A DNA stretch of 64,000 nt from Minisyncoccota bacterium (lineage in GTDB: Bacteria > Patescibacteriota > Minisyncoccia > Phycocordibacterales > UBA9973), in the NCBI GenBank assembly GCA_017991895.1, contig JAGOPR010000001.1, positions 13,089 through 77,088 of the forward strand. Direction: 5' to 3'. This document shows, piece after piece, positions 4,081 through 57,634 of the stretch. Position numbers and translations under genes: made by a program. Numbering within the stretch: the stretch's first letter is position 1; every line of letters begins with the position of its first letter. Under the pieces are notes generated by a model. It ran no database searches, was not told where the DNA came from, and saw nothing but the letters and a program-made list of their open reading frames with translations.

Positions 4081-4224
4081 ATGAGCTTGTATTACGAGGA
4101 AGGCGAAATAAAGAAGGACTTCATAGAACTTCCGCCCCAAATAAATTGCCCATCATATATCTGGTTCCTCGTGGACCAAGAGAAAATTACTGAAGAGGAA
4201 GCAAAGCGCATCCTCAACAATTAA
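4081..4224 (+). CDS. Small hypothetical protein (47 aa, MSLYYEEGEIKK...), not in the ORF track
   Basis: Read by hand; preceded by a canonical promoter and followed by two hairpin terminators (4242-4272, 4293-4324). Confidence 0.35.
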   Translation: MSLYYEEGEIKKDFIELPPQINCPSYIWFLVDQEKITEEEAKRILNN

Positions 4225-4292
4225 ATCTATTTCATCATCTTAATCCCCGCCACTTTATTGTGGCGGATTTTACTATCTACCCAAATAGAATA

Positions 4293-4324
4293 AGAGCGGC
4301 TGAATTTCAGCCGCTCTTTTTTGT
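4293..4324 (+). terminator. Rho-independent terminator
   Basis: agagcggctg / cagccgctct 10-bp stem followed by TTTTTT. Confidence 0.65.
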
Positions 4325-4504
4325 CTAAACCATAAAAACACAAACACACAAAACTATGATAAATCATAAGGAAGCCCGAGGGGGCAATATAACCATCCTT
4401 AACCAAAACAAAAAATCGCCCACGCTCGAGCCCCTTATGATAAATGTAAAATTACAATAGAATATAAAAATACACTATTATATCAATCTTGTCAACTCAT
4501 GTAC

Positions 4505-4537
4505 TCTCAGCCGGTAACCCGGTTACCGGCTGAGAGT
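4505..4537. repeat. REP-like perfect palindrome (copy 1), ctctcagccggtaacc-c-ggttaccggctgagag
   Basis: 16-bp perfect inverted repeat with core ccggtaacc/ggttaccgg; overlaps the last codons and stop of the RAYT gene. Confidence 0.85.
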
Positions 4538-5218
4538 AATCCACTCAATGATCTCCTTTCTGAAGTCGTTTTTGTTTGGAAAATAATCTGGAAACACATT
4601 CGTATCAAGTATCCTACTTTGCGGTCTTTTTTTATTATTAAAATCAGCAAAACTACTCCATTTATAATCCTTTAAATAATTTAGGGCTTCGTTCGTATCT
4701 CGAATACCCTTCTCCTTCCAGTCGCCCTGAATTAATTTTACAGGATTCAAATGAATATACGAAAACAGATATTTTGCGTAATTATCGTTATTAACATGAG
4801 TCGACTTGAATCGACCCTCAAAAAGTGATCCCGTGCGTTTGTGACGAGCATTAAAATATCGAGAGTAAGCCTTCTCAACTCTGTGCATATAATCTGAAAT
4901 AGGATTACTTAGCTCACCCCGCTTGCCGGTAACCGGGTTACCGGCTGGTATCGTTGCGTAAATATGAAAATGATTGGGCATCAATACCCAAGCTCCGATT
5001 GCAATAACTGTATTACCTCTTTCAAAATCAAAAGCACTTATTTTACTTTTAACAATATCATCTCTAAAATCAAACTTAGTGCTCGAATTACATAAGTATA
5101 GTAATTTTACAAATCTATCCCTATCAATATCATCAACAAAAATTAGTTGCTTACTATTCCCGCGATTATACAGGTGATAAAATTCACCCTCTACAAATGT
5201 GACAGTTCTCTGTGACAT
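4523..5218 (-). CDS. REP-associated tyrosine transposase (RAYT) / IS200-like Y1 HUH transposase
   Basis: HUH motif (MPNHFHIY) and catalytic Tyr region (AYSRYFNARH); flanked and interrupted by REP palindromes. Confidence 0.7.
   Translation of the reverse strand: MSQRTVTFVEGEFYHLYNRGNSKQLIFVDDIDRDRFVKLLYLCNSSTKFDFRDDIVKSKISAFDFERGNTVIAIGAWVLMPNHFHIYATIPAGNPVTGKRGELSNPISDYMHRVEKAYSRYFNARHKRTGSLFEGRFKSTHVNNDNYAKYLFSYIHLNPVKLIQGDWKEKGIRDTNEALNYLKDYKWSSFADFNNKKRPQSRILDTNVFPDYFPNKNDFRKEIIEWITLSR
4924..4944. repeat. REP-like palindrome (copy 2) inside the RAYT CDS
   Basis: gccggtaacc-g-ggttaccggc; in frame it encodes PAGNPVTGKR within the transposase. Confidence 0.8.
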
Positions 5219-5233
5219 ATGCCTAATTATATT

Positions 5234-5252
5234 CCGGTAACCGGGTTACCGG
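5234..5252. repeat. REP-like palindrome (copy 3), 15 bp upstream of the RAYT start
   Basis: ccggtaacc-g-ggttaccgg lies between the RAYT start (5218) and the helicase stop (5259). Confidence 0.8.
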
Positions 5253-5258
5253 CAAGCA

Positions 5259-7028
5259 TCATTTTGTCTTTTTTACATATGTTGTCTTGGAGGCCTTGGC
5301 AATTTTTTGACGTTCAAGAAAAGATTTTGTATCTTCATCAGGCTCAATTAAATTATGACTAACAAGACGCAAATTTATAGAACTCGGCCGTCGCCCAAGA
5401 ATTACAGCAATTTCCTCAATTGATTTCCCGTTCTTAAACTCGCGCACCAGCACAAAGTCTTCTTCATCCTTCCATGGCTTTCCTGCATTTGGATAAACAG
5501 AACGAATTTTTTCCATTTTTTCAATCCATTCTGGACTTGCTTTGGACTTTTTGATGCTTGATGTTTTGTATTTTTTCTCTTCGATTTTTCCTCCCATTTT
5601 TAATATGAAGCCATGCTCAAGTTTTTCGAGCTCTTCCTTTGAAAGCCTCGAAAACATTTTTTTATTTTCTTCACTTTCGCTTTGAAAATTTTCATCTAGT
5701 GCAAGCACTGCCGGATCCATTGATAACGCATTATCCGAATATCCCACTAGCCTAATACCAGATAGCGTACGTACACGTGAAAGCGCCACATACCCCATTC
5801 CGTATGTAAATGTCTTTGATAAATCTATTTCTGCGCTATCCATGCTCATTCCTTGGCTCTTGTGGATTGTAATAGCCCACGCAAGACGAAGCGGGTATTG
5901 AGTGATTGAGGCCTTAACTCGTCCATTTTCTTCTACCTCCCAGTCCATCGCTCCTACAGTAAGTTTTCTGCCAGTAGAATATATTTCGACGATCGGCTCG
6001 CCTCTGCTATCAAATCCAGAAACTTTTCCTCGCGTCCCATTAAAATATCCGAGTTCGTAGTTGTTTTTTATAAACATGACTTCTGCGCCAATCTTTAGCG
6101 CGAGTCGCTCCGGAGCAAGGCAGGCTTTTTTGAGTGCCTCAACTATAAATTCACTTCCCTTCCCCGCCATTACAAATTCTTTTGTATCTCCAGAAATCTT
6201 TGCGAGTTCCGCATGATTTATAGAATCAACATCAATATTATGTGTATACAACTTGGTCGGAAGTGTTCCGATATTCTCCGCGTTCATTCTGCCTTTTACG
6301 AGAGCCTTATGTGTATCATCCACAGTATTTGTCCGCATTGCATTTAGGATTTCCAGAAATACGTCGTCCTCCTGTCTGTGCTGTTCCGTAAGATAACAAA
6401 TAGCAGGCTTCATCGCGCGCCATGCTCGAGAATGCACCACCATGTCAGATTCAGGTATTTCTTCCTTGATTTCCCCACTATCGTAGTCAATGAATAACTC
6501 GCTTTGAGATTGTATTTTTGATTCACTATTTTCTATTTTCGATTTACTATTTACAGATTTTGTCACAGGCGGTAGCTGAAAAAAATCTCCAGACAAAATC
6601 ACCTGAAGCCCGCCAAACGGCAAATCGTTGCGCTTAAACCTGCGACATACCCGCTCCACCATGTCGAGCCGATGCGCGTGAAGCATAGAAACTTCATCAA
6701 TAATAAGTACTCTCGCTTTTTCAAATCGTTTCCAAAGATACTGCTTTTGCTCAAGTTGTTCGAGCGCAAAATCATCGAGTGTCTCACGTATGCCAATTCC
6801 AGACCATCCATGTATCGTCTGGCCGTTCATATGTGTCGCTGCGATGCCCGTAGACGCGGTTATGGCGACAGGAATCTCATGTTCATCTAGCCATCGTATA
6901 TACTCTCGTAAAGTATGTGTTTTACCGCTCCCAGCCGAACCAGTTAAGTATACGTTGAGGCCTGTCTTCATTATCGCTAGAGCTTCTGTTTGAGTCATAT
7001 ATTGAGTTTGTATTATACACGAGGACAA
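5259..7028 (-). CDS. PIF1/RecD-like ATP-dependent DNA helicase
   Basis: Walker A GSAGSGKT, Walker B LIIDEVSML, C-terminal HKSQGMS motif typical of RecD/Pif1 SF1B helicases. Confidence 0.75.
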   Translation of the reverse strand: MSSCIIQTQYMTQTEALAIMKTGLNVYLTGSAGSGKTHTLREYIRWLDEHEIPVAITASTGIAATHMNGQTIHGWSGIGIRETLDDFALEQLEQKQYLWKRFEKARVLIIDEVSMLHAHRLDMVERVCRRFKRNDLPFGGLQVILSGDFFQLPPVTKSVNSKSKIENSESKIQSQSELFIDYDSGEIKEEIPESDMVVHSRAWRAMKPAICYLTEQHRQEDDVFLEILNAMRTNTVDDTHKALVKGRMNAENIGTLPTKLYTHNIDVDSINHAELAKISGDTKEFVMAGKGSEFIVEALKKACLAPERLALKIGAEVMFIKNNYELGYFNGTRGKVSGFDSRGEPIVEIYSTGRKLTVGAMDWEVEENGRVKASITQYPLRLAWAITIHKSQGMSMDSAEIDLSKTFTYGMGYVALSRVRTLSGIRLVGYSDNALSMDPAVLALDENFQSESEENKKMFSRLSKEELEKLEHGFILKMGGKIEEKKYKTSSIKKSKASPEWIEKMEKIRSVYPNAGKPWKDEEDFVLVREFKNGKSIEEIAVILGRRPSSINLRLVSHNLIEPDEDTKSFLERQKIAKASKTTYVKKTK

Positions 7029-7767: not shown

Positions 7768-7803
7768 TGAAAGCCGCCGGAATTTCCGGCGGCTTTTATT
7801 TCG
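7768..7803 (+). terminator. Rho-independent terminator
   Basis: aaagccgccggaa / ttccggcggcttt stem followed by a T-run. Confidence 0.75.
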
Positions 7804-8745: not shown

Positions 8746-8767
8746 ATTTAGATTATATCACCCATCA

Positions 8768-8800
8768 AACAAAAATGACCCTCTCGGGTCATTTTTGTTT
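8768..8800 (-). terminator. Terminator downstream of dnaK
   Basis: aaaaatgaccc tctc gggtcattttt hairpin between the dnaK stop and the next gene. Confidence 0.6.
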
Positions 8801-10841: not shown

Positions 10842-11363
10842 ATGCAAAAAAAGCCCGATTTTACCAAGAAAATCCTCAATTCTCTTTCTGGGAAGAAGGC
10901 CGTTAGCGTACCTGAAATTAAGGCAAATTTTGAGCTACCCGAACAAAAATATGCAGTTACTCGTAGTATCAAAAATCTCGCTGATTCAGGGCTTGTAGAG
11001 CTTCTAGAGGGTGGTCAGGGTGAATATGCCCGCCTCACAAAGTCAGGTAGAATGAAGGCTACAAGTCATAAACTAGACTCTACAAGCTCCCTTGTTAACC
11101 CGGCATGGGACGGCAAATGGCGTATTATCCTCCTCGATCTACCAGAAGCCAGAAAAGCAGAACGCGAAGCGCTCCGCTACCTCCTCAAAAAAGCAGGATT
11201 CATAATGCTCAAAAACAGCGCTTGGATCTCCCCTTTTCCATTCGAATTCCTTTTCCAAAATCTGAAAAAAGATTTTGGTCTTTCAACTGAACTCATGATT
11301 ATAGTTACTGACTCCCTCGACCCCGAAACAGAGCTCGAGCTACGCAAATCATACAGCATGTAA
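10842..11363 (+). CDS. PaaX-family-like winged-helix transcriptional regulator
   Basis: N-terminal wHTH; C-terminal WDGKWRIILLDLPE...GF..L.NS.WISP resembles PaaX_C. Confidence 0.5.
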   Translation: MQKKPDFTKKILNSLSGKKAVSVPEIKANFELPEQKYAVTRSIKNLADSGLVELLEGGQGEYARLTKSGRMKATSHKLDSTSSLVNPAWDGKWRIILLDLPEARKAEREALRYLLKKAGFIMLKNSAWISPFPFEFLFQNLKKDFGLSTELMIIVTDSLDPETELELRKSYSM

Positions 11364-11370
11364 TTTCTTC

Positions 11371-11395
11371 TAGCCGGTAACCGGGTTACCGGCTA
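11371..11395. repeat. REP-like palindrome (copy 4), tagccggtaacc-g-ggttaccggcta
   Basis: Same core as the copies around the RAYT gene, 8 bp after the stop of the PaaX-like gene. Confidence 0.8.
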
Positions 11396-11818: not shown

Positions 11819-11862
11819 CAGAGCCGGCAACACAAGTGTTGCCGGCTCAAAAACTATCTACA

Positions 11863-14473: not shown

Positions 14474-14505
14474 AAAATGCCACCCGCCAACGGGTGGCAT
14501 TTTCT
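14474..14505 (+). terminator. Rho-independent terminator
   Basis: aaaatgccacccg / cgggtggcatttt. Confidence 0.7.
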
Positions 14506-14936: not shown

Positions 14937-15052
14937 CGGTGAAGCCACAGCGATGTCGGCTCGCCGACCGCGAGGCGGGGTCGAGAACACTTAGTCCGCA
15001 CAGGATGTAATCATCCGAGCAGACTTAGTGATTCGTGACTCTAAGAGCTAAC

Positions 15053-15088
15053 AAAAGCCCCGCCACGAAAGTGGCGGGGCTTTTGTAT
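15053..15088. terminator. Hairpin terminator (bidirectional)
   Basis: aaagccccgccac gaaa gtggcggggcttt, T-runs on both sides. Confidence 0.65.
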
Positions 15089-18869: not shown

Positions 18870-18929
18870 GAGTAAGCGTTAAAAAGAAAAAACACCCTTT
18901 CGGGTGTTTTTTCTTTTTAACGCTTACTC
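18870..18929. terminator. 28-bp perfect palindrome hairpin overlapping the rpsI stop (bidirectional terminator)
   Basis: gagtaagcgttaaaaagaaaaaacaccc tttc gggtgttttttctttttaacgcttactc. Confidence 0.7.
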
Positions 18930-27713: not shown

Positions 27714-27752
27714 CAAAAAGACGCCCAGCCTAGGCTGGGCGTCTTTTATTTT
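27714..27752. terminator. Hairpin terminator
   Basis: aaaagacgcccagcc tag ggctgggcgtctttt. Confidence 0.65.
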
Positions 27753-38234: not shown

Positions 38235-38254
38235 AAAGAACACTCTAAAAATAT

Positions 38255-38290
38255 CAAAAAAGCCTGAATTACTCAGGCTTTTTTGATATT
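38255..38290. terminator. Bidirectional hairpin terminator (also ends lepA)
   Basis: aagcctga attac tcaggctt with flanking A/T runs. Confidence 0.7.
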
Positions 38291-38310
38291 TGCTATTTGA
38301 AGTTTTAAAT

Positions 38311-47888: not shown

Positions 47889-48443
47889 ATGAGTCCCCGT
47901 AAAACTCCCCCTCCACGCCAAAAAGATGAGTCATTTCTTGACTACATGTCTTTTCGAGCTACACGATGGGTTGGTTCACCTGCGTCACTCGTTGTCCATA
48001 CAATACTTTTTATTTTATCCTTCCTGACATATTTCCTTGGTGCAGATATAAACAAAATATTGCTTGTTCTAACCACTATCATTTCCATGGAAGCAATATA
48101 TATTTCGATATTGATTCAACTCACAGTAAACCGTCATACAAAACAACTTCGTGAAGTTTCAAAAGACGTTGAGGACATTCAAGAAAACGTTGAAGACATT
48201 CAAGAAGACGTTGAAGAAATTCAAGAGGACATCGATGAAATCGCTGAGGACGTCGAAGACATTCAAGAAGACGTTGAAGAAATTCAAGAGGATGAAGAAA
48301 TTGAGGAAAAAGCTGAAGATGCAAAAGAAAAAGAAGTACTTGAACGTATCGAGCATTCACTAAAAGAGCTCGGACATGAAATCGCCGAAATGAAGCGTCG
48401 CGGACATACTCCGCCAAACAACCGCAGCATTTTAGGAGAGTAA
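47889..48443 (+). CDS. DUF1003-like membrane protein with an acidic tandem-repeat linker
   Basis: N-terminal RWVGSP...two-TM region; then eight repeats of (V/I)E(D/E)IQE(D/N) encoded by 21-nt DNA repeats. Confidence 0.5.
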   Translation: MSPRKTPPPRQKDESFLDYMSFRATRWVGSPASLVVHTILFILSFLTYFLGADINKILLVLTTIISMEAIYISILIQLTVNRHTKQLREVSKDVEDIQENVEDIQEDVEEIQEDIDEIAEDVEDIQEDVEEIQEDEEIEEKAEDAKEKEVLERIEHSLKELGHEIAEMKRRGHTPPNNRSILGE

Positions 48444-48472
48444 AAAAATCGAGGACATCAGTCCTCGATTTT

Positions 48473-49024
48473 TTACTTTCGCACAATTACTGGTTTTCCA
48501 GTGAGAAGCGAGATAACTCGCGATGGCTTCCCTACCTTTTTTCCACCAGATATATAAAAATCTACATGTTCTCCAAAATACTTCTTTGCCTCAAGAATCG
48601 TACTAGCAGGTTTCATTCCTTGAGGATTTGCCGATGGAGCTACTAGTGGGCCTGTTTTTTCGAGTAAAGTCCGCAACGCTTTTTTCTTGGGTACACGAAA
48701 AGCAAGCGACTTCGTTCCACGATGTAAATATTCAAATTTAGAAAGACTACACGGAACTATAATTGAAATTGAACCCTTGTATGATTGCTCAGCTTTAAGA
48801 ACGCTATCTGCTACTCCGTCATCATTTACGCCAAATTTCTTTAACCATGAAAATTTTGGAATAAGAATAATGAGTGGTTTGCTATGGCTACGGCTTTTTA
48901 TCTTATACAGACGAGTAACTGCTTTTTTCGAAAAAGCACTTCCAACAACGCCATAAAGTGTATCCGTAGGCAAAATGCCTATACCGCCCTTTTTTATTAT
49001 ATTTGCCACCTCCGGAGAATTCAT
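48473..49024 (-). CDS. tsaC: L-threonylcarbamoyladenylate synthase (YrdC/TsaC)
   Basis: ILPTDTLYG...KPLIIL YrdC signature. Confidence 0.85.
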   Translation of the reverse strand: MNSPEVANIIKKGGIGILPTDTLYGVVGSAFSKKAVTRLYKIKSRSHSKPLIILIPKFSWLKKFGVNDDGVADSVLKAEQSYKGSISIIVPCSLSKFEYLHRGTKSLAFRVPKKKALRTLLEKTGPLVAPSANPQGMKPASTILEAKKYFGEHVDFYISGGKKVGKPSRVISLLTGKPVIVRK

Positions 49025-56059: not shown

Positions 56060-56081
56060 AAGTAAACCAACGCGGAGTAAA

Positions 56082-56118
56082 AAAACCAGCAAGGTCCGAC
56101 CTTGCTGGTTTTTTTACT
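56082..56118. terminator. Bidirectional terminator
   Basis: aaaaaaccagcaaggtc cg accttgctggttttttt. Confidence 0.8.
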
Positions 56119-57634
56119 CTATTATTCTAATCTCATTTGCTATTTTTTCCGTTTCAGAAAAACCTGATTCATTTTTAGCATTTTTATTTATATAAACTTT
56201 GTACAGAACGTAAGAGGCCCCAAGCAAACCAGTAACACCAACAGCCAAAGATACATACAAAGGAATCTCGCTTTTCTCCACGGGTTTACTATTTTCCGCC
56301 GAAGCGACACTTGCCTGCATTTCTATTGGCATAATCGGAGCTGATACTTCTTTTACAGTAATCTTTGTCGAAGGCGAGGATACAGTGGGTGTACTAAAAG
56401 CGACTACTGATTTTTCGATTTTGGGTAACGTAGGATACGTAGAAACAATACTTCCTGATGGCAACACAAGCTGTAACCTAGCAAAGTCGCCGTCAGTGAA
56501 TCCTGTTAAGCTCTTTGATAAAAAAATTGACTTGCCCGAGATAATAAATGTTCCATACGGGATAATAAATTTTTTTGTTCCGCTCGAATTTATTATCCCC
56601 CAATCTGAGATATCTGCTTCACTGTCTGAAGGATTTTTTAATTCAATTGTACCGATATCACTCACTGATGAAATAAAAACATGTGGCTCCACGATTTCAA
56701 TAACTTGTCGTATTTTAATATCTGGTTCACGCAAATATGGGTTAGTTTTATATGTAAACATTGCCAAATATGTACCAGAAAATTCATACTCATGCTTAAA
56801 CGGCTCAAAATAATCCAATTTTTTTACTGTGCCATCTCCAAAAGAAAAATAGAATTCCCCACGCTGTCTAACTTCTCCGGCAAGTCCCGTAACTTTTACT
56901 GATACATCAAAAGGAATACCTGCTACTCCGGTTATAGGCATAGATAGCTCTGCCTTCATTTTTGGAGGCTCATATGCCTTTGGTGTAGTCACGGTCGTAG
57001 TAGACCCTGTCCCACCTCCTTCAGTCGTCGTACCTCCGCCGCCTCCACCGCCACTACCCGTATCCCCTCCACCTCCTCCAGATGATCCACCGCTGTTGCT
57101 AACTCCCGGGGTAGGAACTGCCCCTACCCAAGATGAGCCGACAAGCTGAAGTGAGTTGCCGTCGCCAGCACCTCCTACAGTATTTGTATATGAAACAGTG
57201 TCTACAATATTGCCTGCATCATCAATAATTTTTACATTACCACTCGTATTTCCTAGACTCATAGATGTATCTATAACTGTACCTGAATATCCTGAGTGAT
57301 CTGTCAGAAAAACGTCAGCATTGGAAGCTATAACTGCATACCCATTTACTGGTATTACCATTGTGCCTCGCGTTGCGGTATCTGCAAGTAAATGATTGCT
57401 TCCATCATTAAAACGCCATGTATCCCCGCTTCCGCCGGAAATTGTTACAGCTGTCGTTCCAGTATTCTGAATTTCTATCCACTCGTGATCAGAATCAGAT
57501 CCCGGCGCATCATAAAAAATCTCGCTGATGATGATACCGCCAGAAGCAAGCGTTGTTCCGCGTACGGAAAAAAATAATATGAGAATGAGTAGTAAACTGT
57601 AAACTATTCCGCGATTATTTATTCCACACCACAT
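56114..57634 (-). CDS. Secreted lamin-tail-domain (LTD) protein with Gly-rich linker and C-terminal TM anchor
   Basis: LTD signature IIISEIFYDAPGSDSDHEWIEIQNTG; poly-G/S/T linker; start trimmed to the Met that precedes the signal peptide (alternative start at 57766 would overlap the upstream ATPase). Confidence 0.6.
   Translation of the reverse strand: MWCGINNRGIVYSLLLILILFFSVRGTTLASGGIIISEIFYDAPGSDSDHEWIEIQNTGTTAVTISGGSGDTWRFNDGSNHLLADTATRGTMVIPVNGYAVIASNADVFLTDHSGYSGTVIDTSMSLGNTSGNVKIIDDAGNIVDTVSYTNTVGGAGDGNSLQLVGSSWVGAVPTPGVSNSGGSSGGGGGDTGSGGGGGGGTTTEGGGTGSTTTVTTPKAYEPPKMKAELSMPITGVAGIPFDVSVKVTGLAGEVRQRGEFYFSFGDGTVKKLDYFEPFKHEYEFSGTYLAMFTYKTNPYLREPDIKIRQVIEIVEPHVFISSVSDIGTIELKNPSDSEADISDWGIINSSGTKKFIIPYGTFIISGKSIFLSKSLTGFTDGDFARLQLVLPSGSIVSTYPTLPKIEKSVVAFSTPTVSSPSTKITVKEVSAPIMPIEMQASVASAENSKPVEKSEIPLYVSLAVGVTGLLGASYVLYKVYINKNAKNESGFSETEKIANEIRIIE

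What the first reader, a model, noticed from the sequence alone, without database searches (positions are those of the whole stretch)
4505..5260. RAYT (REP-associated tyrosine transposase) flanked by, and interrupted by, a perfect REP palindrome; fourth copy 6 kb away
The core ccggtaacc-N1-ggttaccgg occurs four times in the window and nowhere else: 4505-4537 (extended to 16-bp arms, overlapping the transposase stop), 4924-4944, 5234-5252 (15 bp upstream of the ATG) and 11371-11395. The enclosed 231-aa protein has an HUH motif (HFHIY) and the Y1 transposase Tyr region (AYSRYFNARH), as in IS200/RAYT enzymes. RAYTs sitting among their cognate REPs is the classic arrangement, best known from Proteobacteria. 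Here one REP copy lies inside the RAYT reading frame and is translated as PAGNPVTGKR. Either the enzyme's substrate has inserted into its own gene without breaking it, or the CDS retains its recognition hairpin.
Basis: partly seen in the sequence, partly recalled or inferred. Interest (0 to 1): 0.65.

Follow-up and report, generated by a model that had tools for sequence, protein, structure and literature searches.

The report
RAYT gene carrying its own hairpin
A domesticated transposase-like gene of an ultra-small (CPR/Paceibacteria) bacterium carries the same short DNA palindrome in its promoter, inside its coding sequence and at its stop codon; about 80 relatives from other organisms show this three-hairpin layout, each with its own palindrome, so it is a conserved, co-evolving family trait rather than a one-off insertion.

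Summary
CCGGTAACC-S-GGTTACCGG occurs exactly four times in the window against 0 expected. Three copies sit on one 231-aa ORF (4523-5218, minus strand) and one is intergenic, 6 kb away.

The ORF is a RAYT-type Y1 HUH protein. It has HFH at residues 83-85, its predicted fold is closest to E. coli TnpAREP (4ER8), and it carries the class-2 Y---NP motif.

The new result concerns 84 homologous loci at 53-69% identity. Nearly all have a lineage-specific palindrome at the same three places:
- over the -35/spacer of the gene's promoter;
- in the disordered loop just after HUH;
- at the stop codon.

The three copies match within a locus and differ between loci, even at syntenic positions. So they evolve in concert.

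In-frame REPs inside tnpAREP were already reported by Quentin et al. 2018 for subclass 2.4. This CPR clade carries subclass 2.1 motifs, a subclass reported as REP-less. Its palindromes are short and perfect, lack a GTAG foot and are low-copy.

Verdict: real, correctly interpreted in outline, and a new variant of a known kind. The function of the internal copy is unresolved.

The parts
4523..5218 (-). RAYT-type Y1 HUH gene, 231 aa. HUH codons are at 4972..4964 (H83-F-H85). Catalytic Tyr Y154 is at 4759..4757 and N158 at 4747..4745 (YIHLNP). A C-terminal tail carries KWSS (186-189).
   Evidence: ORF. Pfam Y1_Tnp 19.6 bits; NCBIfam REP_Tyr_transpos 43.8 bits. phmmer alignment to 4er8. Invariant residues in alignment A1. 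AF2 model pLDDT 83; top Foldseek PDB hit 4er8_A, E=2e-6.
5234..5252 (.). 5' (U) hairpin: CCGGTAACC-G-GGTTACCGG, 9-bp arms. It starts 6 nt after the stop of the upstream Pif1-helicase gene and ends 15 nt before the RAYT ATG. It fills the spacer of the promoter-like site.
   Evidence: The equivalent copy is present in most homologous loci.
5226..5255 (-). Sigma-70-like promoter of the RAYT gene. The -35 TTGCCG (5255..5250) overlaps the hairpin arm, the spacer is 18 nt, and the -10 is TATAAT (5231..5226). The ATG lies 7 nt further on, which implies a leaderless mRNA.
   Evidence: Best hit of the consensus scan, 10/12. A TATAAT-like box lies within 20 nt of the ATG in 76/82 homologous loci; in 56 it ends 6-7 nt before the ATG. 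This is a consensus match only; no transcript data.
4925..4945 (.). Internal (I) hairpin: GCCGGTAACC-G-GGTTACCGGC, 10-bp arms, 21 nt. It is translated in frame as A92-G98 (AGNPVTG), in the loop between the HUH strand (beta3) and the next helix.
   Evidence: The loop has pLDDT <50 at residues 98-102. A palindrome at the same loop is found in 74-76 of 81 loci.
4502..4538 (.). 3' (D) hairpin: 18-bp arms, TACTCTCAGCCGGTAACC-C-GGTTACCGGCTGAGAGTA. Its centre base is inverted relative to the other three copies. The arm encodes the last residues TLSR and supplies the TAA stop codon. No T-run follows.
   Evidence: The equivalent copy near the stop codon is found in most homologous loci.
11371..11395 (.). 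Dispersed fourth copy: TAGCCGGTAACC-G-GGTTACCGGCTA, 12-bp arms. It is intergenic and starts 8 nt after the stop of a PaaX-like gene (10842-11363).
11821..11848 (.). Possible diverged relative of the palindrome: GAGCCGGCAACAC-AA-GTGTTGCCGGCTC. It shares AGCCGG-Y-AAC with the REP arm and lies between convergent genes. Uncertain.
   Evidence: Resemblance only; not tested statistically.

Best explanation
This is a REPtron of a Paceibacteria (CPR) bacterium. It consists of a single-copy, vertically inherited RAYT-type Y1 HUH single-strand DNA endonuclease gene and its cognate palindromic hairpin.

The hairpin sits at three fixed places:
- U overlaps the -35/spacer of the gene's own leaderless promoter.
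- I lies in frame, in the disordered beta3/alphaC loop just after the HUH motif.
- D lies at the stop codon.

A few further copies lie in intergenic spacers.

Shown here: the triad is a trait of the whole protein clade; its sequence is lineage-specific; and the three copies change together, even at syntenic loci.

Inferred:
- The enzyme recognises these hairpins as single-stranded or cruciform DNA.
- Its own cut-and-rejoin activity, or hairpin-templated conversion, keeps the three copies identical.
- The internal copy persists because the loop tolerates any peptide and because it keeps being overwritten together with the flanking copies.
- The U copy over the promoter gives the protein a way to repress its own gene.
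For: Protein identity:
- HUH and Y154---N158-P motifs are invariant in 27 homologues.
- The best PDB sequence and fold match is TnpAREP 4ER8.

Triad:
- Strict criteria give U+I+D in 52 of 67 scorable loci.
- An internal palindrome with arms of at least 7 bp and at most 1 mismatch is present in 74/81 loci.
- A locus's own palindrome is found in 90/97 of its flank zones. Palindromes of other loci are found in 148/4753.
- There are 31 distinct cores among 50 loci.

Selection acts on the nucleic acid, not the peptide:
- The centre of the palindrome falls in all three codon positions (32/12/30).

Concerted evolution at orthologous loci:
- In the lysS-RAYT-mraZ-rsmH set, the triad reads GCGGAAGC-AAG, GCGGAAGTC-G, GCGGAAGAC-S or GCCTTGCCC-T. 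Each form is the same at all three sites of its locus, with the same boundaries and the same frame.
- The closest relatives of the window gene share its Pif1 neighbour. They carry CCGGTGACC-W-GGTCACCGG where the window has CCGGTAACC-S-GGTTACCGG.

Hairpin rather than plain operator:
- Copy-private palindromic extensions of at least 3 bp occur in 10/46 U and 13/47 D copies, against 1.6% by chance.

Promoter overlap.

Dispersed copies: 9/10 are intergenic.

Precedent: in-frame REPs in the same loop of subclass 2.4 TnpAREP (PMC6006769).
Against: - There is no biochemical or transcript evidence of any kind. Cleavage, binding and autorepression are all inferred.
- The hairpin is low-copy: 1 extra copy in 64 kb, and about 0.24 per 10 kb in relatives' flanks. 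This is far below classical REP families.
- The source genome could not be counted.
- There is no GT[AG]G foot.
- The protein scores below the curated cut-offs of Pfam Y1_Tnp and NCBIfam REP_Tyr_transpos.
- Loop orientation of U, I and D follows no single rule.
- Mixed triads (L026, L098) and decayed internal copies (L081, L084, L101) show that homogenisation is not absolute.
- Near-universal retention of the internal copy could instead reflect direct selection for a function. The data do not separate the two.
Confidence: 0.72

Rival explanations
1. The internal hairpin is itself a selected cis-element, not just a tolerated REP. It could be a second operator or roadblock that the protein binds to shut down its own transcription. 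It could be a site where the enzyme nicks or rearranges its own gene. Or it could be a protected master copy from which the flanking and dispersed hairpins are renewed.
For: - It is retained at the same loop in about 95% of loci at 53-69% protein identity.
- It stays a perfect palindrome even where it differs from the flanking copies (L026).
- It keeps the same frame and boundaries while its apical bases change within a syntenic clade.
- U overlaps the promoter.
Against: - Loss or decay of the internal copy occurs with an otherwise intact ORF (L084, L081/L086, L101).
- Homogenisation by the enzyme predicts the same pattern.
- Imperfect copies show no G.U bias that would point to an mRNA role (small sample).
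- Quentin et al. modelled the equivalent loop in subclass 2.4 as peripheral to the DNA-binding and catalytic sites.
Confidence: 0.3
2. The unit from hairpin through gene to hairpin (about 750 bp) is an autonomous IS200-like insertion sequence, and the palindromes are its left and right ends.
For: - The layout is compact, with hairpins right at both gene ends and a promoter inside the left end, as in many insertion sequences.
- There is no universal neighbour gene across the 80 loci.
Against: - The gene is single-copy in the window.
- Synteny is conserved inside sub-clades, and the window shares its Pif1 neighbour with its closest relative.
- The motif is class-2 Y---NP rather than the Y---Q of IS200.
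- There is no tnpB.
- The ends are the same perfect palindrome, with no fixed relative orientation across loci, rather than distinct LE and RE hairpins on one strand.
- There are no relatives in viral contigs.
- Plasmids hold only relatives at 24-31% identity.
Confidence: 0.08
3. The palindromes are double-stranded operators or terminators. The protein would be a repurposed dimeric DNA-binding regulator acting through its C-terminal tail, with no single-strand cleavage involved.
For: - The sites have perfect two-fold symmetry, with 9-10 bp half-sites.
- U lies over the promoter.
- D and the dispersed copies lie at gene 3' ends.
- Subclass 2.1 tails resemble HTH domains, according to PMC6006769.
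Against: - The full catalytic set (HUH, Y154, N158) is invariant across the family.
- Copy-private extensions of the stems are unexpected for an operator.
- The hairpins are not followed by T-runs, whereas the window's real terminators are.
- Concerted replacement of three sites needs a copying process.
Confidence: 0.1
4. A recent, accidental insertion of a REP into this particular gene.
For: The insert is 21 nt, in frame, and identical to the flanking copies.
Against: Homologues from about 80 other organisms carry their own palindrome at the same loop. The closest relatives carry a compensatory variant at the same place.
Confidence: 0.02

Closest known systems
TnpAREP subclass 2.4 REPtrons (Quentin, Siguier, Chandler, Fichant 2018, PMC6006769; Bertels group 4)
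   Same: REPs flank the gene and are also inserted in frame inside it. [quoted passage not shown]
   Different: - Subclass 2.4 proteins are about 194 aa, have WQ and YIxNNP motifs and no C-terminal tail.
- Their REPs are long or 'double-foot' with GT[AG]G, and occur in Cyanobacteria, Bacteroidetes and other phyla.
- Here the motifs are FE and YIHLNP, and there is a WSS tail.
- The palindromes are short, perfect and have no GT[AG]G foot.
- There is one internal copy, at a nearly fixed place, in almost every member.
- The 5' copy sits over the promoter.
- The host is CPR.
TnpAY1 subclass 2.1 / Bertels group 1 / TIRYT
   Same: - The signature motifs of Table 1 of PMC6006769 are present: NH[YF]H, Y[IV]HLNP and an SS motif in the tail.
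- The length is about 238 aa.
- There is 24-31% identity to plasmid-borne proteins; the two whose sequences were read, Iodobacter L102 (31% identity) and Skermanella L104 (30%), have NHVH/NHFH, LWEGR, YIELNP/YVEANP and WSSY.
   Different: - Subclass 2.1 was reported to have no associated REPs.
- The Iodobacter relative has identical palindromes on both sides but none inside the gene.
- The W motif here is FE rather than W[EQ] or FQ.
- No HMM-level classification was possible.
E. coli TnpAREP / RayT (subclass 2.2; PDB 4ER8)
   Same: - It is the best sequence and fold match in the PDB.
- Both have HUH plus Y---NP.
- Both are single-copy genes flanked by cognate hairpins.
   Different: - Sequence identity over the Foldseek structural alignment is only 16%.
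- The E. coli protein is 165 aa.
- E. coli REPs are imperfect, have a GTAG foot and number in the hundreds per genome.
- E. coli has no intragenic REP.
IS200/IS605 TnpA
   Same: Both are Y1 HUH proteins that recognise hairpins. Both are compact genes bounded by hairpins.
   Different: - IS200/IS605 has Y---Q, is multi-copy and mobile, and has distinct subterminal LE and RE hairpins on one strand.
- It is often accompanied by tnpB.
- None of these features is seen here.

Membership tests
Y1 HUH endonuclease superfamily (TnpAY1) | HUH metal-binding motif on a beta strand | tested here: met
   H83-F-H85 is invariant in 27 homologues. It lies on strand 83-89 of the model.
Y1 HUH endonuclease superfamily (TnpAY1) | Catalytic Tyr on the following helix, aligned with TnpAREP Y115 | tested here: met
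   Y154 in SYIHLNPVK aligns with YIYINPVK of 4er8. It is invariant and lies on helix 146-162.
Y1 HUH endonuclease superfamily (TnpAY1) | Fold similarity to solved Y1 transposases | tested here: met
   Foldseek against the PDB: 4er8_A at E=2.3e-6, followed by IS608 and ISDra2 TnpA.
Y1 HUH endonuclease superfamily (TnpAY1) | Score above the Pfam Y1_Tnp gathering threshold | tested here: not met
   19.6 bits against a cut-off of 23. Some close homologues do carry a precomputed PF01797 hit.
RAYT / TnpAREP REPtron | Class-2 Y---NP motif | tested here: met
   Y154-I-H-L-N158-P159. The signature is as defined in PMC6006769.
RAYT / TnpAREP REPtron | Gene flanked by its own family of palindromic hairpins | tested here: met
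   Window copies at 5234-5252 and 4502-4538. Own palindrome found in 90/97 flank zones of relatives.
RAYT / TnpAREP REPtron | The hairpin is dispersed in many extragenic copies across the genome | tested here: inconclusive
   There is one extra copy in 64 kb. Relatives have about 11 good extra copies in 460 kb of flanks, mostly intergenic. The source genome is absent from the genome collection.
RAYT / TnpAREP REPtron | 5' GT[AG]G guide tetranucleotide at the foot of the hairpin | tested here: not met
   The flanks of the four window copies are ATT, TTG, TCA and CTA before the core. No conserved flank appears in 31 aligned 5' copies.
RAYT / TnpAREP REPtron | Single-copy gene, vertically inherited | tested here: met
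   Single copy in the window. Synteny is shared within sub-clades and with the closest relative. Whole genomes were not available.
RAYT / TnpAREP REPtron | NCBIfam REP_Tyr_transpos equivalog cut-off | tested here: not met
   43.8 bits against a cut-off of 80.
TnpAREP subclass 2.4 (Quentin 2018) | REP inserted in frame between HuH and Y, in the beta3/alphaC loop | tested here: met
   4925-4945 encodes A92-G98, directly after H85.
TnpAREP subclass 2.4 (Quentin 2018) | Motifs WQ and YIxNNP, no C-terminal tail, about 194 aa | tested here: not met
   The window protein has LFEGRF, YIHLNP, a 70-aa tail with KWSS, and 231 aa. The comparison is with Table 1 of PMC6006769. It is motif-level only.
TnpAY1 subclass 2.1 (Quentin 2018) / Bertels group 1 | Motifs NH[YF]H, Y[IV]HLNP, SS tail, about 238 aa | tested here: met
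   NHFH, YIHLNP, W187-S-S189 and 231 aa. There is 24-31% identity to plasmid proteins; the two read, Iodobacter L102 and Skermanella L104, show the same signature.
TnpAY1 subclass 2.1 (Quentin 2018) / Bertels group 1 | Assignment by the authors' subclass HMMs or MCL clustering | not testable with these tools
IS200/IS605 insertion sequence | Y---Q motif, several near-identical copies, tnpB partner, distinct LE and RE hairpins | tested here: not met
   The motif is Y---NP. The gene is single-copy in the window. The neighbours are a Pif1 helicase and DinB. Both ends carry the same palindrome.

The most novel reading that the evidence does not exclude
The in-gene hairpin is not a tolerated passenger but a working part of a self-contained circuit. 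The enzyme would act first of all on its own gene, through a promoter hairpin, a coding hairpin and a stop-codon hairpin. It would do so to throttle, rewrite or switch itself. The concerted change of the three copies would then be the visible trace of RAYT activity in vivo, in genomes that carry almost no other REPs.
Probability: 0.25. Interest if true: 0.75.

Novelty: new variant of a known kind. Interest (0 to 1): 0.55.

Why it matters
What RAYTs do for their hosts, and how REPs are copied, are still open questions. No transposition of a REP has been watched directly.

This clade is very large (more than 5,000 database relatives) and lives in bacteria with tiny genomes. The enzyme's hairpin is nearly confined to the gene itself, and three copies provably change together across lineages. 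That is comparative evidence that something, most simply the enzyme, rewrites these hairpins in vivo.

It also offers a 750-bp cassette holding the enzyme and three substrates that could be tested directly. Finally, it shows that in-gene REPs are not peculiar to subclass 2.4, and that a 2.1-like lineage thought to lack REPs has them.

Tried and rejected
- Genome-wide count of the palindrome. The source MAG is not in that collection, so the count could not be made.
- Profile of the family against PDB sequences: no hit at E<=0.01. The single-sequence hit to 4er8 (E=0.034) and the fold search carried the comparison instead.
- Rfam scan of 4200-5500: nothing near any gathering score.
- Viral contigs: no relatives. 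Plasmids: only relatives at 24-31% identity.
- Test for an mRNA-level role through G.U bias in imperfect internal hairpins: 14 cases, no bias, inconclusive.
- Search for a fixed orientation rule among the three copies. For 3-nt loops the 5' copy is nearly always CTT on the coding strand, but overall the same and inverted arrangements are about equally common.
- Search for a conserved cleavage or guide motif beside the hairpins: none found. The recurrent TT on the 5' side in one sub-clade is explained by the -35 TTG.
- The idea that the encoded peptide is what is conserved was rejected, because the palindrome sits in all three frames.
- The idea that a leaderless promoter is special to this gene was rejected. 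In the window, 16 of 48 long ORFs have TATAAT 5-9 nt before the ATG, and only 1 has an SD-like motif.
- The CCGG and GGTNACC restriction-site content of the window palindrome was considered irrelevant, because relatives use unrelated sequences.
Full report
**1. The observation**

The 19-mer CCGGTAACC-N-GGTTACCGG occurs exactly four times in the 64-kb window: at 4511-4529, 4926-4944, 5234-5252 and 11374-11392. There are no further matches at up to three mismatches, and dinucleotide shuffles give essentially zero.

Reading the sequence directly gives the full palindromes:
- 4502-4538: 18-bp arms.
- 4925-4945: 10-bp arms.
- 5234-5252: 9-bp arms.
- 11371-11395: 12-bp arms.

The window contains about twenty other perfect palindromes. 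Each of those is unique, and most are A-run/T-run bidirectional terminators. This palindrome is the only repeated family.

The ORF 4523..5218 on the minus strand is 231 aa and intact.
- Its TAA stop (4525..4523) lies inside the 3' hairpin arm.
- The 5' hairpin ends 15 nt before the ATG.
- The internal 21 nt are read in frame as A92-G98 (AGNPVTG).

**2. The protein**

The sequence-family matches are weak:
- Pfam Y1_Tnp scores 19.6 bits, below the gathering score of 23.
- NCBIfam REP_Tyr_transpos scores 43.8 bits, below the cut-off of 80.
- The only PDB sequence hit is E. coli TnpAREP, 4ER8, at E=0.034.

An AlphaFold model built on 27 homologues has pLDDT 83 and pTM 0.85. Its best match among solved structures is 4er8_A at E=2e-6, followed by the IS608 and ISDra2 transposases.

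H83-F-H85 is invariant in the homologue alignment. So is Y154-I-H-L-N158-P. This motif aligns with Y115...N119-P of TnpAREP and is the class-2 'Y---NP' signature.

The database holds this exact protein from a 'Candidatus Pacebacteria' MAG. More than 5,000 relatives were found; the few that carry an organism name are Paceibacteria/Nomurabacteria (CPR).

The gene is single-copy in the window. It lies between a Pif1-type helicase and a DinB-type polymerase.

**3. The decisive comparison**

In the alignment, the internal palindrome falls in a loop right after the HUH strand. That loop varies in length and sequence and is modelled with pLDDT below 50.

I fetched 80 homologous loci from metagenomes, at 53-60% protein identity, and four closer ones at 63-69%. 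Almost every one has a perfect or near-perfect palindrome in that same loop, and its sequence differs from locus to locus. Examples are GGAAGC-AAG-GCTTCC, CCCTAAACC-G-GGTTTAGGG, CCACATGTC-T-GACATGTGG and CCAAAAGAC-G-GTCTTTTGG.

The same palindrome recurs just upstream of the ATG and at or near the stop codon.

The counts are:
- All three copies under strict criteria: 52 of 67 scorable loci.
- Internal palindrome with at least 7 paired bases per arm and at most 1 mismatch: 74 of 81 loci.
- A locus's own palindrome found in its own flank zones: 90 of 97.
- Palindromes of other loci found there: 148 of 4753.
- Distinct cores: 31 among 50 loci.

The centre of the palindrome lies 32-48 nt after the N codon of NHFH, and it falls in all three codon positions (32/12/30). 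So the nucleic-acid symmetry is conserved, not a peptide.

The three-hairpin layout is thus a trait of the clade.

**4. Concerted evolution**

No neighbour gene is universal, but sub-clades share context. Six loci share the order lysS-RAYT-mraZ-rsmH. Within this syntenic set the hairpin reads GCGGAAGC-AAG-GCTTCCGC, GCGGAAGTC-G-GACTTCCGC, GCGGAAGAC-S-GTCTTCCGC or GCCTTGCCC-T-GGGCAAGGC. Each form is the same at all three sites of its own locus. The internal copy keeps the same boundaries and frame while its apical 5 nt change.

The closest relatives of the window gene behave the same way:
- L098 has the same Pif1 helicase upstream. It carries CCGGTGACC-W-GGTCACCGG at the 5' and internal sites. 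This is the window's palindrome with a compensated A>G/T>C change. Its 3' site carries CCCCGTAACC-G-GGTTACGGGG, so the triad is mixed.
- L100 has CCCGGTGACC-W-GGTCACCGGG at all three sites.

Parallel independent substitution at three sites times two arms is not credible. A copying process is required.

Exceptions show that the process is not absolute:
- L026 has a perfect internal palindrome that differs from its two flanking copies.
- L081/L086 and L101 retain only the 3' half of the internal copy.
- L084 has none inside, although it has related hairpins on both sides.

**5. Hairpin or operator, DNA or RNA**

Many 5', 3' and dispersed copies extend their stems with sequence private to that copy. 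Extensions of at least 3 bp occur in 10/46 U, 13/47 D and 3/8 other copies, against 1.6% by chance. The window's 3' copy has a private 8-bp extension, giving arms of 18 bp. This argues for intrastrand pairing (hairpin or cruciform) rather than a simple double-stranded operator.

The hairpins are not followed by T-runs, unlike the window's real terminators.

Imperfect internal copies show no G.U bias on the mRNA strand. The sample is only 14, so this is inconclusive.

**6. The promoter**

The best sigma-70-like site in the region is on the gene's strand. The -35 TTGCCG (5255..5250) overlaps the hairpin arm. The 18-nt spacer is essentially the hairpin. The -10 TATAAT (5231..5226) follows, and the ATG lies 7 nt beyond it.

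A TATAAT-like box lies within 20 nt of the ATG in 76 of 82 loci. In 56 of them it ends 6-7 nt before the ATG, with the 5' hairpin immediately upstream.

Leaderless starts are the norm in this organism. In the window, 16 of 48 long ORFs show the same arrangement and only 1 has an SD-like motif. So the notable point is only that the hairpin occupies the -35/spacer region. That gives a hairpin-binding protein an obvious way to repress its own gene. This is inference; there are no transcript data.

**7. Is it a REP family?**

Only partly shown.
- The window has one extra copy, intergenic, starting 8 nt after a stop codon.
- Relatives have about 11 convincing extra copies in 460 kb of flanking DNA, and 9 of 10 examined are intergenic.
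- That extrapolates to tens of copies per megabase-sized genome at most, far below classical REPs.
- A scan of representative genomes found only chance singletons in unrelated taxa, and the source genome was not in that collection.
- There is no GT[AG]G foot.

**8. What is already known**

Quentin, Siguier, Chandler and Fichant (2018, PMC6006769) reported REPs inserted within tnpAREP genes of subclass 2.4. [quoted passage not shown] The authors called this a unique feature of subclass 2.4 and modelled the loop as peripheral to the DNA-binding and catalytic sites.

The present protein does not carry the 2.4 signature (WQ, YIxNNP, no tail, about 194 aa). It carries the 2.1 signature instead: NH[YF]H, Y[IV]HLNP, an SS motif in a C-terminal tail, and about 238 aa.

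It has 24-31% identity to plasmid-borne 'transposases'. The two whose sequences I read have the same signature: Iodobacter L102 (31% identity) and Skermanella L104 (30%). The Iodobacter one is flanked by identical GTGTAGCAA-G-TTGCTACAC palindromes but has none inside.

Quentin et al. found no REPs with subclass 2.1. Two full-text searches found no paper linking RAYT/TnpAREP with CPR. The subclass assignment here is by motifs only.

**9. Mechanism, with status**

Shown:
- RAYT-like fold and catalytic motifs.
- A conserved triad.
- Lineage specificity.
- Concerted change at orthologous loci.
- Stems extended privately.
- The 5' copy lying over a promoter-like site.
- The internal copy lying in a disordered loop.

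Inferred:
- The protein binds and cuts these hairpins in single-stranded DNA.
- Its cut-and-join activity, or hairpin-templated conversion, renews the three copies together.
- The internal copy survives because the loop accepts any peptide and because it is overwritten along with the others.
- Binding at the 5' copy autoregulates the gene.

Not resolved: whether the internal copy is itself selected for a function. Its retention in about 95% of loci, and its perfection even when it differs from the flanking copies (L026), leave that open. I put it at about 0.25-0.3.

**10. Verdict**

The tyrosine assignment needs correcting, and the 'REP family' claim needs a caution.

The phenomenon is known in kind. 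Here it appears in a different RAYT lineage and phylum, in a regular, nearly universal and co-evolving form. I rate it a new variant of a known kind, interest 0.55.

Noticed in passing
window, whole (e.g. 35199, 47888, 53756 on +; 38299, 51532, 55255 in minus-strand coordinates): 16 of 48 ORFs of at least 150 aa have a TATAAT-like box ending 5-9 nt before the ATG, and only 1 has a Shine-Dalgarno-like motif. Leaderless mRNAs appear to be the norm in this organism.
   Followed up: partly
window 4292-4318, 7770-7796, 8767-8800, 14474-14503, 15051-15086, 18870-18929, 27716-27747, 38249-38291, 48443-48474, 56075-56119: There are many unique perfect palindromes with A-runs on one side and T-runs on the other, with arms up to 28 bp. 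They look like bidirectional intrinsic terminators between genes.
   Followed up: no
window 11821-11848: GAGCCGGCAACAC-AA-GTGTTGCCGGCTC lies between convergent genes. Its arm resembles the REP arm (AGCCGG-Y-AAC), so it may be a diverged or older copy of the family.
   Followed up: no
L098 4841-4870 and L101 1856-1885: A 13-bp-arm palindrome, CATCGGCCGCGAC-TAAY-GTCGCGGCCGATG, is conserved about 140-185 nt downstream of the RAYT stop in two relatives. It lies inside the start of the next called gene and is unrelated to the RAYT hairpins.
   Followed up: no
L081 3430-3479: The 3' hairpin is duplicated in tandem: two copies of CCCACATGTC-S-GACATGTGGG, 29 nt apart, together form a 22-bp-arm palindrome. 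This is a REPIN/BIME-like doublet.
   Followed up: no
L102 978-996 and 2131-2149 (Iodobacter fluviatilis plasmid NZ_CP025783.1): A subclass-2.1-type 'transposase' of 235 aa is flanked on both sides by identical GTGTAGCAA-G-TTGCTACAC palindromes, which contain GTAG. The literature reports no REPs for subclass 2.1.
   Followed up: partly
window 5259-7028 (-) and L098 2161-3930: A 589-aa Pif1-family helicase lies immediately upstream of the RAYT gene, both in the window and in its closest relative. A single-strand DNA enzyme next to a helicase may or may not be meaningful. The pairing is not conserved in more distant loci.
   Followed up: partly
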